Translations under genes and position numbers: made by a program | The notes under the pieces: generated by a model | What the model was told of the DNA's origin: nothing | What the model saw: the letters and a program-made list of their open reading frames with translations, nothing else | Databases searched by the model: none | In this document: positions 20,005-25,066 of the stretch, one piece after another | Layout of the letters: the number at the start of each line of letters is the position of its first letter | Position numbering within the stretch: position 1 is the stretch's first letter | Assembly (NCBI RefSeq): GCF_009914755.1 | Contig: NC_060932.1 | Length of the DNA: 64,000 nucleotides | Source: the human T2T-CHM13v2.0 reference genome, Homo sapiens | Strand: one strand, 5' to 3'

Positions 20005-21324
20005 GAGGGTTTCTGCTCTGACACATAAGGGCATTGGAAGTCACCACTGTTATCCTCCTCACAAGAGAAGTGCTGAACTCGCTGAAAATTGACAACTTTT
20101 CTTAGATCCCTGGGTAAATTGAGGTCACAGGGCACGTGTTCCTCCCCAAAATTGGAGCAACCAGCAGATGGATGCAGGAATCACAGCTTGTTACCACCAC
20201 TGGGAGAAGCAGCCCCAGCTGGAGTCAGCACCCACTGGGAGCACTGAAACCACATTGTCAAAGTGCTGGATTCTAAGCATGGACTTGCTTGAGAGAGAAG
20301 ACTCTGGAGAGCCCATTCTACTTGTGTGAGTTTTATTTCTAGGAGCCACACCAGGTTGCTCAGGTGAAGATCATAGAAAAATACCCGCATACTTCTGCCA
20401 GGAATAGGGAAAAGTCATCATCATGGAGTACTCTCAGAGGATTGTATTCTGAGCAAGGCCTGCCCTCAATAGAAATCTGTTTTTCAAGCCTCACAGACTT
20501 GGGTTTTCTGGGATCCTAAGCAATGAGAGTGAAGGGGAATTCTCAATTCCAGCCCCATTGTCTTCCTTCCTTACACAGGGGGAAGAAAGCTAAGAAGCAC
20601 TTGTGATGGTTGCAGCCCAGGGGTACAGGCTTATTATAGAACTGAGACCCAATCATAGCATTGTTCGGTGGCTCTTTTCCTTCAACACCTTTCCACCACA
20701 TCAGTAGGGCTCCTGTATAATAACATGGAACTAGAGCTGAAAGGGGTCATTGCTAGATTCAGGTCCTATTTAAGAAGTCATCTTGGGGAAACCAAAAGTT
20801 GTAACAGGAGAGACAAAAACAAGGACAACACAGGACATTTTAACCTCTTAAACCTACATCTATAGCAGACATAAACACAGCCTGACTCCTAGATGGACAG
20901 ACATAAATCTCACCCTAAAGTTTCATTTATCTTAGTGCACTTTTACCTGCTTCACTATATCCATCATGCAACGAAAAACCTACAAGGCATGCGGAAAGGA
21001 AGAAATGAAAGATAATCTGAAGACACAAAGCAAGCACCAAAATAAGACCTAGATATAGCAGAGACTGAAATTATCAACAGATAGTGCTAAGGGTTCTAAT
21101 GGAAAAAAAGTGGACACTGACAAGAACAGATGAGTGATATAAGCAAAGAGATGGAAACTCTAAGAAAATCAAAGATAAAAAACATAGCTGGGCATAAAAA
21201 ACACTGTGACAGAAATGACAAATGCTTTTGATGGTCTAATCATTAGACTGGGCATAGGCCAGGTAAAAATCAGTGAGCTTAAGGAACTTCCAAACTGAAA
21301 AGCAAAGGTAGAAAATATTTTTTT

Positions 21325-22394
21325 TTGTATTTTTTTCTTTTTTTTTTTCTTATTTATTTATTTATTTATTTATTTATCATTCTTGTGTGTTTCTCGCAGA
21401 GGGGGATTTGGCAGGGTCATAGGACAATAGTGGAGGAAAGATCAGCAGATAAACAAGTGAACAAAGATCTCTGGTTTTCCTAGGCAGAGGACCCTGCGGC
21501 CTTCCGCGGTGTTTGTGTCCCTGGGTACTTGAGATTAGGGAGTGGTGATGACTCTTAACGAGCATGCTGCCTTCAAGCATCTGTTTAACAAAGCACATCT
21601 TGCACCGCCCTTAATCCATTTAACCCTGAGTGGACACAGCAGATGTTTCAGAGACCACCGTGTTGGGGGTAAGGTCATAGATAACAGCATTCCAAGGCAG
21701 AAGAATTTTTCTTAGTACAGAACAAAATGGAGTCCCCTATGTCTACTTCTTTCTACACAGACACAGCATCAATCTGATTTCTCTATCTTTTCACCACATT
21801 TCCCCCTTTTCTATTCGACAAAACCGCCATCGTCATCATGGCCCGTTCTCAATGAGCTGTTGGGTACACCTCCCAGACGGGGTGGCGGCAGGGCAGAGGG
21901 GCTCCTCACTTCCCAGAAGGGGCGGCTGGGCAGAGGCGACCCCCACCTCCCTCCCAGACGGGGCGGCTGGCCGGGCGGGGGCTGTCCCCCCACCTCCCTC
22001 CCGGACGGGGCAGCTGGCCAGGCGGGGGCTGTCCCCCCACCTCCCAGACAGGGCGGCTGCCGGGCGGAGACGCTCCTCACTTCCCAGACGGGGTGGCTGC
22101 CGGGCGGAGGGGCTCCTCACTTCTCAGACGGGGCGGCCGGGCAGAGACGCTCCTCACCTCCCAGACGGGGTCACGGCCGGGCAGAGGCGCTCCTCACATC
22201 CCAGACGGGGTGGTGGGGCAGGAGGCGCACCCCACATCTCAGACGTTGGGCGGCCGGGCAGAGATGCTCCTCACTTCTTTCCAGATGGGGTGGCAGCTGG
22301 GCAGAGGCTGCAGTCTCGGCACTTTGGGAGGCCAAGGCAGGCGGCTGGGAGGTGGAGGTTGTAGTGAGCCGAGATCACGCCACTGCACTCCAGC
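21325..22394 (-). mobile_element. SVA retrotransposon, older SVA_B/C-like: poly(A), SINE-R, short GC-rich VNTR and only the 3' remnant of the Alu-like domain; no CCCTCT hexamer
   Basis: T-rich tail 21325-21377; SINE-R (gcagagggggatttggcagggtcataggacaatagtggagg...) ~21378-21870; VNTR units (ctcctcacttcccagacgggg) ~21870-22290; Alu-like remnant ending gagatcacgccactgcactccagc at 22394. SINE-R variants (aacaaaatggagtc, aatctgatttctctatc) look older than SVA_D-F. Confidence 0.95.
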
Positions 22395-22710
22395 CTCTGC
22401 TTTTTCTCAGTTCCAGCTCCTTTCTCTTTCACGGTACCTCAGTTGCTTCTACTTTATCGGATAGTGTTGGAGATCATGGAGGGAAGGCAAATATACGCGC
22501 GGCTGAGCGGAGGCGAATCCGGAGCGCGAATCCGGGGCTCGGGCCCGTGGCCCCGCGGCGGTCCGGGAGGTCGGGGCGGGCGGTGGCGGCTGCGACCACG
22601 GGGCCAGGCCTCTTCCCCTCCTCCGCCACCGCCGCCACCGCCACCGCCGCCACCCCGGCTGGAGAGCGCTGGGCGCAAGCTGCGCGCGCAGACCGGGCCA
22701 CTCGGTCGCC
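22395..22710 (-). other. Captured (5'-spliced/transduced) CpG-rich first-exon/5'UTR-like sequence fused to the SVA
   Basis: Non-SVA, non-L1 sequence lying inside the TSD (agaaaatattttttt 21310-21324 / agaaaagattttttt 22711-22725). The minus-strand junction ...AAAAAGCAGAG|GCTGGAGTGCAGTGG falls where SVA has CCCAG|GCTGGAG. About 35 CpGs in 22495-22710; (GGC/GGT)n run. Confidence 0.85.
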
Positions 22711-25066
22711 AGAAAAGATTTTTTTAAAAATGGAACAGAATATTGAAGAACTGTAGGAGAAATACAAAAGAAGTAACATATGTGGAATGGTAATACCAGA
22801 AAGAGAAGAAAGAAAGAAAAGAAAAGAAGAAATATTTGTAGTAAAAGTTGATGAGAATTTTTCGGAACTAATGGTAAGACACCAAACCATATCCAGGAAG
22901 CTAAAAGAACCAGCAAGATATATATTAAAAATCCACAACTAAGCATTTCATATTCAAACTATAGAAAATCAAAGATGAAAATGAAATCTTGAAAGAAGCT
23001 ACAGAAATAAAATGGCTCACGTACAGAGGGGTAAGGATAAGAATTACTTAAGTCTACTCTTTGTAAACCATGCAAGCAGGAAAAAAGTTGATTCAAATAT
23101 TTAAAGTGTTGAAAGAAATAAGTAAAACACCAACCCAGAATTCTGTCTATAGATGACTTCATCCAAAACAGCAGAAACACATTCCTCTCAAGCTTATATG
23201 GAATATTCATCAAGATAGAATATATTCTGGGCTATAAAACACACCTTAAAAATTTAAAAGACTAGAAGTAACACAAAGTCTGCTCTTAGACCATAGTGGA
23301 ATTAAACTAGAAATTAGTAACAGAAAGATAGCCAGAAGTTTCCAAAATATATAGATACTAAACAACATACTTCTAAATAACACATTCGTCAAAGAAGAAG
23401 TCTCAAGATAAATTTTAAAATATTTCAAACTAAGTAAAAATGAAAATTCAACTTATCAAAATTTTTGAGATACCAAAAAGGCCAGATTAAAAGGAAATGT
23501 ATTTACCATTGAATACATATTTAGAAATGGAGTAAGATCCAAAATCAATCATCTAAACTTCTTCTTTAAAAAACTAGAGAAGAGCAAATTAAATCCAAAA
23601 TAAGCAGAAGAAAAGAAATACTATGAATGAGAAAAGAAATCAATGAAACTGAAAATAAGATATTGGTATAGAAACTTAAGCCAAGAGCTTGTTCTTTGAA
23701 AAGATCAAAACACTTGACGAACCTCTGACCAGGCTAATGAAGAAAAAAGGGAGAGAAGATCCAAATTACCGAAATCAGAAATGAAAGAAGGGCCATCAGT
23801 CCTGATTCCAGGAACATTAAAAAGATAATAAAAGAATACTATGAATAACTCTGTGTCCAAGAATTTGATAACCTGCATGAAATGGACAAGTTGTTTGAAA
23901 AACAAACCTGTCAAAACTCACACAAGAAGGAATAGACAATCTGAACAGGCCTATATCTATTAAAGAAATTTAACAAATAACTAATAACTTTCCAAAACAG
24001 TAAGCACCAAGCCCGCATGGGTTCATTGGTGAATTCTATCAAATATTTAAGGAAGATAATTATTTCAGTACTCCACAACCTATTCCAGAAGACAGAAATA
24101 GAGGGAATAAATGCTAAATAATTCTATAAAATTATTTAGCATTCCCCTCAAATCAAAACCAGAAAAAGACATTTAAAGAAAGGATCACTGCAGACCAGTA
24201 TTTCTCATAAACATAGATGTGGAGATCCTCAGCAAAGTATGAGGGAATCAAATCTAACAACGTATAAAAATAATTTTACACCATGACCAAGCTGGATTTA
24301 TCCAGGTATGCAAGGCTGGCTCAACATCTGAAAATTGTAATCATTCACAGGCTAAGGAAGAAAAAATTACATCATGTCTATAGTACAGCAAAAGCATTTG
24401 CCAAAACCCAGCACCCATTCATAATAAAACTCTCTACAAAATAAGAATACAGGGGGAACTTCGTCAACTTGATAAGGAATATTTACAAAAAACCCTGTAG
24501 CTAAACTCATACTTCATGGTGAGAAACTGGACAATTTCCCCTCATATCAGAAGCAAAACACTCTTACCATGTTGGAAGTTTGAGGAAATGCAATGAGACA
24601 GGAAAAGGAAATAAAAGCTGTACAGACCAAGACGGGAGAAATAAACCTATTTCACAGATGACATTGTTGTCTGTGGAAAAAATCCAAAGAATCAACAAAA
24701 ATTACCCTGAAACCAATAAACAATTATAGCAAGGTTGCAAGATACAAGGTTATTATACAGAAGTCAGTTATTTTCCTATACACCAGCAATAAAAAATTGG
24801 AATTCGAAATGGAAGACACAAGATAAAATTAACACCAAAAATAAAGAAATACTTAGGTATAAATCCAAGAAAGCATGCATAAGATCTGTATGAAGAAAGC
24901 TACAAAACTCTTATAAAAGACATAACATTTTCACGATAATAAGTACAAAGTTGGAGGGATGACTTCGAGACTTATTAGAAAGGTACTGTAATGAAGACAG
25001 TGTTGTATTGGTCAAAAAATCGGCCAATAGAACACAATGGAAAGCCCAGAAAATAGACTCAGTGCA

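What the first reader, a model, noticed from the sequence alone, without database searches (positions are those of the whole stretch)
21310..22725. Chimeric retro-insertion: a foreign first-exon-like sequence spliced onto an older SVA and retrotransposed as one unit
Seen: one 15-bp TSD with 1 mismatch (21310-21324, 22711-22725) brackets both the SVA and 316 nt of unrelated GC-rich sequence. The L1M ORF1 host text is continuous across the insertion. On the element strand the target reads TTTTT|AAAAAAA, the L1 endonuclease consensus. The SVA has no hexamer and lacks most of its Alu-like domain. The foreign sequence ends ...AAAAAGCAGAG, like an exon end, and joins at GCTGGAGTGCAGTGGCGTGATCTCGG, immediately after the CCCAG of the SVA Alu-like region. 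Established: SVAs trap upstream exons via cryptic acceptors in this Alu-like region, the best-known case being MAST2 exon 1 in SVA_F1. Inference: the SINE-R looks SVA_B/C-like and I do not recognise the captured sequence as MAST2. This would be an independent exon capture from an unidentified gene with a sense-oriented intronic SVA, possibly one member of a small promoter-swapped SVA family.
Basis: partly seen in the sequence, partly recalled or inferred. Interest (0 to 1): 0.85.

Follow-up and report, generated by a model that had tools for sequence, protein, structure and literature searches.

The report
SVA retrotransposon carrying trapped NAA38-upstream exons
This is an SVA jumping element that picked up two spliced exons from a chromosome 17 gene and copied them into chromosome 8, a well-known kind of event with a different source gene from the famous MAST2 case.

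Summary
On the minus strand, one 15-nt target-site duplication (14 of 15 matching) brackets 316 nt of non-SVA sequence, a 5'-shortened SVA (86 nt of Alu-like region, VNTR, SINE-R) and an A-rich tail.

The 316 nt are not MAST2. They are exon 1 (215 nt, CpG island with a GGC repeat) spliced to exon 2 (101 nt) of a minus-strand transcript at CHM13 chr17:7.79 Mb. This lies between NAA38 and CHD3. Canonical GT/AG sites sit at every boundary. Exon 2 ends at a GT donor exactly where the SVA begins, just after the CCCAG of the Alu-like region.

The genome holds two more chimeras. A chr10 copy has the same junction and its own TSD. A chr6 copy carries exons 1, 2 and 3, joined 128 nt further upstream at a second Alu-like acceptor. 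Its SINE-R belongs to a different SVA clade (14 of 14 diagnostic columns), so the same gene was probably trapped twice.

No SVA remains within 60 kb of the source. I could not name the subfamily, check ape orthologues, or read the 2009 catalogues that probably list this group. Verdict: a real, well-supported exon-trapped SVA, and a new member of a known kind.

The parts
22711..22725 (-). 5' target-site duplication (aaaaaaatcttttct), preceded by ttttt
   Evidence: It is the only 15-mer pair with at most 1 mismatch between the two 200-nt neighbourhoods.
22496..22710 (-). Captured exon 1 of the chr17 transcript: a CpG-island first exon with a shortened GGC repeat. One extra 5' G is absent from the source.
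   Evidence: Matches C17:7790786-7790497 on the minus strand at 92-93%. Of 10 mismatches, 7 are CpG decay in the copy. GC is 0.81 and CpG o/e 1.02. The source exon is followed by GTGGGT.
22395..22495 (-). Captured exon 2 (101 nt), ending ...aaaaagcagag
   Evidence: Identical to C17:7788663-7788563. In the source it is preceded by TTTCAG and followed by GTAGGG.
22309..22394 (-). Remnant of the SVA Alu-like region, starting at the cryptic acceptor (gctggagtgcagtgg...)
   Evidence: In 18 of 19 canonical relatives the preceding bases are CCCAG.
21867..22308 (-). SVA VNTR
   Evidence: TRF array, period 40, 10.9 copies, with an inner 47-nt array at 21940-22045. The direct-repeat families agree.
21375..21866 (-). 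SINE-R domain (boundaries approximate)
   Evidence: 96-97% identical to 39 other SVA copies, out of 40 scored from 2263 candidates. It is sister to the chr10 chimera in the tree.
21325..21374 (-). (AATA)n / A-rich tail
   Evidence: The chr10 copy carries a similar (AATA)n-AAG-A tail.
21310..21324 (-). 3' target-site duplication (aaaaaaatattttct)

Best explanation
An SVA once sat in sense orientation inside a minus-strand chr17p13.1 transcription unit. That unit starts in a CpG island between NAA38 and CHD3 and most plausibly consists of alternative upstream 5' exons of NAA38.

Transcription began at the gene's own promoter. Intron 1 was removed normally. [quoted passage not shown] This removed the hexamer and most of the Alu-like domain. 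The chimeric RNA was polyadenylated at the SVA end.

L1 proteins then inserted the RNA by target-primed reverse transcription at a TTTTT|AAAAAAA site in a DLGAP2 intron on chr8, antisense to DLGAP2. The result is a 15-nt TSD around one unit.

Shown here: the structure, the source exons, the splice-site dinucleotides, the TSDs and the sibling copies. Inferred: the intronic source SVA (none is present today), L1 as the mobiliser, and the NAA38 assignment.

A second SVA from another clade trapped exons 1-3 of the same gene through an upstream acceptor (GGTGGAG|ACGGGGTTTCGC). That event gave the chr6 copy.
For: Source mapping: the 316 nt map to C17 in pieces at 7790786-7790497 (92-93%) and 7788664-7788563 (100%). 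No other genome hit spans more than 85 nt apart from the two chimeras. 14 of 14 first-look candidates were scored.

Splice sites: exon 1 is followed by GT, exon 2 is flanked by AG and GT, and exon 3 is flanked by AG and GTAAGG.

Direction of transfer: 7 of 10 mismatches between chr8 and the source are CpG to TpG/CpA changes in the copy.

chr10 copy: it has the same exon 2|GCTGGAGTG junction, its own TSD (aaattacctagtctc) and a different 5' end.

chr6 copy: it carries exons 1, 2 and 3, with exon 3 identical to C17:7771884-7771817. The join reads ...accatg|acggggtttcgc. Its TSD is aacaatattaag.

Acceptors in canonical relatives: AG precedes the downstream site in 18 of 19 copies and the upstream site in 18 of 19. 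The upstream site follows a T-rich tract.

chr8 and chr10 are sisters: SH-aLRT 88, 4 shared private SINE-R states, one shared exon 1 change (position 178) and a shared GGCTCACTAC state in the Alu-like remnant.

The extra 5' G not found in the source in chr8 and chr10 fits reverse transcription of the cap, as mentioned for SVA in passages of PMC4859970.

Gene context: a minus-strand ORF at C17:7762213-7762815 matches NAA38 (PDB 7mx2_C, E 6.5e-36). CHDNT, PHD and Chromo domains lie on the plus strand at C17:7796-7801 kb, and KDM6 JmjC at 7757-7759 kb. Exon 3 ends in ACCATG, and the NAA38 coding exon begins in phase 0 after gcgcag|.
Against: No SVA or SVA remnant lies within C17:7741001-7801000 in this genome. 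The required intronic source element is therefore inferred, and for two captures two such elements must have been lost.

No transcript data were available to confirm that the three chr17 segments are annotated exons or belong to NAA38. The only support is that the retrocopies themselves record the splice joins.

The downstream acceptor has a poor pyrimidine tract (...CTCAATGTTGCCCAG).

The age signals disagree. Exon 2 is unchanged in the chr8 copy. The chr8 SINE-R has 7 private changes but has lost almost none of its CpGs (mean 0.3 of 8.5). The chr10 copy has lost 34% of its CpGs.
Confidence: 0.9

Rival explanations
1. It is an ordinary SVA_F1: MAST2 exon 1 fused to SVA_F.
For: [quoted passage not shown]
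Against: The 316 nt map to chr17:7.79 Mb as two exons. The only chr1 hit is 38 nt of GGC repeat at 110 Mb. Only 3 chimeric copies exist, against at least 84 reported for SVA_F1.
Confidence: 0.01
2. The chimera arose by template switching of the L1 reverse transcriptase from SVA RNA to an mRNA, or by read-through from an SVA that landed next to a processed pseudogene. Under this reading it was not made by splicing into the SVA.
For: Template-switch chimeras are reported for SVA (processed pseudogene plus SVA; PMC12593883 passages). No intronic source SVA is found.
Against: The join lies exactly at the last base of exon 2, before a GT donor, and exactly after an AG in the SVA. The chr6 copy repeats this with exon 3 and a second AG. 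A random switch point would not hit exon ends twice.
Confidence: 0.04
3. All three chimeras descend from one capture event rather than two. Under this reading the chr6 form is ancestral, and the chr8/chr10 form arose from it by a second splice from the exon 2 donor to the inner acceptor.
For: All three share exons 1 and 2 of the same gene. The inner acceptor CCCAG|GCTGGAGTG is present inside the chr6 copy.
Against: The SINE-R domains belong to different clades. The split has SH-aLRT 99. In 14 of 14 diagnostic columns chr8 and chr10 carry the state of one clade and chr6 the state of the other. chr8 and chr6 are 92% identical, while each is 96-99% identical to its own clade. No derived substitution in the exons is shared by all three copies.
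Confidence: 0.15

Closest known systems
SVA_F1 (MAST2 exon 1 - SVA_F chimeras, human-specific)
   Same: [quoted passage not shown] The element then retrotransposed as one unit with a TSD (PMC6139936 section 10; PMC12593883 passages).
   Different: The source gene is on chr17 (the NAA38/CHD3 interval), not MAST2. Two exons are carried rather than one. There are 2 copies with this junction, or 3 counting chr6, against at least 84. The SINE-R clade is different and more diverged. I did not show by sequence that the acceptor is the same. The site lies 302-398 nt after the detected hexamer start in 9 canonical copies, against 'position 385' of SVA_F.
Other spliced 5'-transduction groups of SVA (Damert et al. 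2009; Hancks et al. 2009), chimpanzee pt_SVA_D6 (STK40 exon 1), and the polymorphic MRPS18A exon 1-SVA
   Same: An upstream exon of a host gene is spliced into an intronic sense SVA and mobilised. The resulting groups are small and share one 5' transduction. Extra exons are sometimes carried (exons of 8 other genes in pt_SVA_D6; MRPS18A at the SVA_F1 site).
   Different: Here the source gene differs, and the same gene appears on two SVA clades through two acceptors. I could not check whether this group is already in the 2009 inventories, because those papers are not held.
Pathogenic exon trapping by intronic SVA (for example FKTN, CLN7)
   Same: Cryptic acceptors inside a sense-oriented intronic SVA capture the upstream exons of the host transcript (passages in PMC10681720, and PMC4859970).
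   Different: Those cases are transcripts at the insertion site. Here the trapped transcript was itself retrotransposed, and the trapping element is gone from the source gene.

Membership tests
SVA retrotransposon | VNTR followed by a SINE-R domain and a poly(A) tail | tested here: met
   VNTR array at 21867-22308. The SINE-R is 96-97% identical to 39 other genomic SVA copies. An A-rich tail follows.
SVA retrotransposon | 5' (CCCTCT)n hexamer and a full Alu-like domain (canonical full-length form) | tested here: not met
   There is no hexamer and only 86 nt of Alu-like sequence. Canonical relatives have about 300-400 nt before the same point. The element is therefore a non-canonical SVA.
L1-mediated retrotransposition | A target-site duplication flanking the whole unit, a TT|AAAA-type target and a 3' A tail | tested here: met
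   15-nt TSD matching at 14 of 15, unique in its neighbourhood. The target reads TTTTT|AAAAAAA. The chr10 and chr6 copies have their own TSDs. Paralogues of the host repeat lack the insertion.
Spliced (exon-trapped) 5'-transduced SVA | The 5' non-SVA sequence ends exactly at an exon's 3' end, with a GT donor following in the source locus | tested here: met
   The source reads GCAGAG|GTAGGG at C17:7788563/2. The exon 1/exon 2 intron is precisely removed, with GT...AG at its ends.
Spliced (exon-trapped) 5'-transduced SVA | The SVA part begins immediately after an AG in the canonical SVA sequence | tested here: met
   18 of 19 canonical relatives, and the chr6 copy, read CCCAG|GCTGGAGTG.
Spliced (exon-trapped) 5'-transduced SVA | A sense-oriented SVA present downstream in the source gene | tested here: not met
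   There is no SVA in C17:7741001-7801000. My recollection, not checked here, is that the MAST2 source element is also missing from the reference. This weakens the case but does not exclude membership.
SVA_F1 | The 5' part is MAST2 exon 1 | tested here: not met
   The 5' part maps to chr17 exons and there is no MAST2-locus hit.
SVA_F1 | SVA_F-type SINE-R, human-specific | not testable with these tools
   Only relative placement was possible. chr8 and chr10 sit in a clade of canonical SVAs that is distinct from the chr6 clade.

The most novel reading that the evidence does not exclude
The CpG-island promoter upstream of NAA38, divergent from CHD3, was captured twice and independently. Two different SVA lineages were involved, using two different Alu-like acceptors: exons 1-2 at CCCAG|G and exons 1-3 at GGTGGAG|A. 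Both intronic source SVAs have since vanished from the gene. This would make the locus a recurrent SVA driver that the existing catalogues have not pointed out. It would also be a natural record that sense-oriented, gene-trapping SVAs are purged from their host gene while their offspring survive. A bolder add-on is that the chr10 copy, which starts 18 nt further in and also has an extra 5' G, was transcribed from the captured CpG island of a chr8-like master. That would mean the trapped exon acts as an internal promoter, as reported for SVA_F1.
Probability: 0.3. Interest if true: 0.45.

Novelty: new member of a known kind. Interest (0 to 1): 0.3.

Why it matters
The element is a clean, fully resolved example of exon shuffling by SVA. 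Every step is legible in the sequence: promoter use, two or three normal splices, a cryptic splice into the Alu-like region, and L1-type insertion.

It shows that the SVA_F1-type architecture arose more than once in the human lineage, from a gene other than MAST2. The same host promoter was probably used by two SVA lineages.

The three retrocopies preserve fossil records of germline splicing of an NAA38-upstream transcript. They also carry shorter forms of its GGC repeat.

For genome annotation, window 22395-22710 is a retroposed copy of chr17 exons. It is not a local promoter of DLGAP2.

Tried and rejected
1. MAST2/SVA_F1 identity: rejected.

2. Source SVA in the chr17 gene: BLAST of the whole element against C17:7741001-7801000 found only short Alu-type and A-rich hits.

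3. L1 ORF1 in the flanks: 0 of 59 ORF pieces matched an L1 family. Continuity of the host repeat was shown through paralogues instead.

Only relative clades were obtained. PMC7353768 passages say that SVA_D-derived elements carry short deletions in the SINE-R relative to SVA_A. The only indel between my two clades is 2 nt plus 1 nt, and I could not polarise it.

5. Idea that the captured CpG island stayed unmethylated relative to the rest of the element: not supported. Exon 1 shows 7 CpG decays, while the chr8 SINE-R lost only a mean of 0.3 of 8.5 CpGs. The numbers are too small to say more.

6. More family members: the exon 3 query found only chr6 and the source (2 of 2 candidates). In the SINE-R tree only chr10 pairs with chr8 among the 28 relatives examined. 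5'-truncated members without the exons cannot be recognised.

7. Literature: Damert 2009, Hancks 2009 and Hancks & Kazazian 2010 are not held. Searches for SVA with NAA38, LSMD1 or CHD3 found nothing relevant (6 papers; 8 papers, none on SVA transductions). The search found no paper describing this group.

9. Dating: private SINE-R changes (7 in chr8, 5 in chr10, over about 450 columns) and end branches of 0.023 and 0.015 suggest millions of years, not a recent polymorphism. No calibrated age or ape check was possible.
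Full report
**1. What is there**

Read on the minus strand, the window shows one compact insertion:
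- a 5' TSD, aaaaaaatcttttct (22725-22711), preceded by ttttt;
- 316 nt of non-SVA sequence (22710-22395);
- SVA Alu-like sequence beginning gctggagtgcagtggcgtgatctcgg (from 22394);
- a VNTR (TRF array 21867-22308, period about 40, 10.9 copies; repeat families);
- a SINE-R;
- an (AATA)n/A tail;
- the 3' TSD, aaaaaaatattttct (21324-21310).

The two TSD copies are the only 15-mer pair with at most 1 mismatch between the two 200-nt neighbourhoods. NCBI's repeat mask, as given by the hub, stops at 22403. That fits a non-repeat 5' part.

Both flanks belong to an old dispersed repeat with 68-77% identity to its copies. Among the 39 non-self hits listed for each flank, two loci occur in both lists. 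In both, the flank matches are collinear and 63 and 41 nt apart. An empty site predicts 51 and 31 nt. The host sequence is therefore interrupted by this one insertion.

I could not confirm that the host is 'L1M ORF1'. None of 59 flank ORF pieces matched an L1 family in Pfam.

**2. Where the 316 nt come from**

A search of the window's own genome (14 of 14 candidates scored, 17 matches) gave these results:
- the window itself;
- three pieces on C17: 7790786-7790694 and 7790656-7790497 at 92-93%, and 7788664-7788563 at 100%, all on the minus strand;
- two long matches on C10 and C6;
- 11 short hits of 35-85 nt confined to the GGC-repeat part.

There is no MAST2-locus hit.

At the chr17 locus, the first block ends ...GCCGCGCG and is followed by GTGGGT. 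The second block is preceded by TTTCAG and ends ...AAAAAGCAGAG, followed by GTAGGG.

The foreign segment is therefore exon 1 (window 22710-22496, 215 nt) precisely spliced to exon 2 (22495-22395, 101 nt). Exon 2's donor sits exactly at the point where the SVA begins.

Of the 10 mismatches between the chr8 copy and the source, 7 are CpG to TpG/CpA changes in the copy. This identifies chr17 as the source and chr8 as the retrocopy.

The chr8 copy begins with one G that the source lacks. Passages of PMC4859970 mention reverse transcription of the cap for SVA 5' ends.

**3. The acceptor**

Among the 28 closest canonical SVA relatives, 19 loci include the Alu-like region. Of these, 18 read CCCAG immediately before GCTGGAGTGCAGTGG, and one reads CCCAA. 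The chr8 SVA part therefore starts right after an AG.

The site lies 86 nt before the VNTR. It is 302-398 nt after the detected start of the hexamer in the 9 relatives where a hexamer was found.

[quoted passage not shown] A polymorphic MRPS18A exon 1 chimera uses the same site (PMC12593883 passages). The chr8 site is compatible with that acceptor. I did not compare it with an SVA_F1 sequence.

**4. Relatives**

*chr10 copy (L002).* It has the same exon 2|GCTGGAGTG junction, its own TSD (aaattacctagtctc, possibly 17 nt), a 5' end 18 nt further into exon 1 that also carries an extra G, and a similar (AATA)n-AAG-A tail.

*chr6 copy (L021).* It has TSD aacaatattaag and carries exon 1, exon 2 and a further 68 nt identical to C17:7771884-7771817. 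That stretch is a third exon, flanked by AG and GTAAGG in the source. It is joined as ...accatg|acggggtttcgc to a point 128 nt further upstream in the Alu-like region. In canonical relatives, 18 of 19 read TTTTTGGTGGAG immediately before that point, and one reads GGAT. This is a second cryptic acceptor with a good T tract.

An exon 3 query found only chr6 and the source. CHM13 therefore holds 2 + 1 chimeras. 5'-truncated members cannot be recognised.

**5. One capture or two**

The evidence points to two SVA lineages.
- The chr8 SINE-R is 96-97% identical to its 39 best genomic matches (40 scored of 2263 candidates).
- The chr6 SINE-R is 98-99% identical to a non-overlapping set (40 scored of 2791 candidates).
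- chr8 and chr6 are 92% identical. chr6 is 94.2% identical on average to the 28 chr8-type relatives, against 96.5% for chr8.
- In a 37-row tree, chr6 falls with its 6 sampled relatives (SH-aLRT 99). chr8 and chr10 are sisters (SH-aLRT 88) inside the other group.
- In 14 columns that separate the groups, chr8 and chr10 carry one state 14 of 14 times, and chr6 carries the other 14 of 14 times.
- chr8 and chr10 share 4 private SINE-R states, one exon 1 change and one Alu-like change.
- No derived exon change is shared by all three copies.

Together with the different exon content and acceptor, two independent trappings of the same gene by two SVA lineages is the better reading. I rate a single capture at about 0.15.

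The sampling is limited. Both sets are the best hits and so are biased towards little-mutated copies.

**6. The source gene**

Pfam and PDB anchors place the three exons as follows.
- KDM6-type JmjC exons lie on the plus strand at C17:7757-7759 kb.
- An NAA38 exon lies on the minus strand at C17:7762213-7762815. It has an LSM domain and matches 7mx2_C with E 6.5e-36.
- CHD-type CHDNT, PHD and Chromo exons lie on the plus strand at C17:7796-7801 kb.

The exons run on the NAA38 strand, towards NAA38. Exon 3 ends in ACCATG. The NAA38 coding exon starts in phase 0 directly after gcgcag| with GAT TCG GAC. Splicing exon 3 to it would give an in-frame start in an ACCATGG context.

This makes alternative upstream exons of NAA38 the most plausible identity. 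It is an inference, because no transcript data were available. One passage of PMC9338934 lists the same repeat call under both CHD3 and NAA38. That is weak support for overlapping annotation.

The names KDM6B and CHD3, and the gene order, rest on recall plus these domain hits.

**7. What is missing**

No SVA or remnant lies in C17:7741001-7801000. This span covers introns 1-3 and NAA38. The source element or elements are therefore inferred and must have been lost or never fixed. That would be expected if sense-oriented, transcript-trapping SVAs harm the host gene.

I could not inspect ape orthologues or date the insertion properly. Private changes (7 in chr8 and 5 in chr10, over about 450 columns), the degenerate tail and the TSD mismatch point to an insertion millions of years old. 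However, exon 2 is unchanged, and the chr8 SINE-R has kept nearly all of its CpGs.

**8. Comparison and novelty**

Exon trapping by SVA with retrotransposition of the chimera is established. [quoted passage not shown]

The 2009 genome-wide inventories (Damert et al.; Hancks et al.) probably include these reference elements.

My searches of the open library found no paper linking SVA to NAA38, LSMD1 or CHD3. They also found no paper describing this group.

I therefore rate this a new member of a known kind. The modestly new point is that one host promoter appears on two SVA lineages through two acceptors.

Noticed in passing
L018 (C17:7790660-7790730, minus strand) versus window 22620-22660: The source exon 1 carries a long uninterrupted (GGC)n run of about 30 units in CHM13. 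The three retrocopies carry only about 7-14 units, interrupted by GGT or AGC. Those interruptions are the expected CpG-decay products. Either the source repeat expanded later or the copies contracted.
   Followed up: partly
L019/L023 (C17:7771817 and C17:7762525): Exon 3 of the source transcript ends in ACCATG. The NAA38 coding exon starts in phase 0. Together they predict an N-terminally shortened NAA38 isoform beginning M-DSDGE. This was not checked against transcripts.
   Followed up: partly
window 21375-21866: The chr8 SINE-R has lost almost none of the CpGs present in its relatives (mean 0.3 of 8.5). The sister copy on chr10 has lost 34% and the chr6 copy 23%. This could be chance, hypomethylation or gene conversion.
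   Followed up: no
L021 1665-1710 (chr6 copy, 3' end of exon 1): A cluster of 6 non-CpG substitutions, mostly transversions, lies within about 40 nt relative to the chr17 source. The adjacent exons 2 and 3 (169 nt) are unchanged.
   Followed up: no
window 20925-21324 and 22711-23110: The insertion sits inside an old dispersed repeat with hundreds of first-look candidates (585 and 892) and 68-77% identity. The family was not named. No L1 ORF1 signal was found in Pfam.
   Followed up: partly
L002 2760-2805 and window 21325-21380: The chr8 and chr10 copies share an unusual (AATA)n-AAG-A-rich tail in place of a plain poly(A). This suggests the tail pattern was inherited from a common master element.
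   Followed up: no
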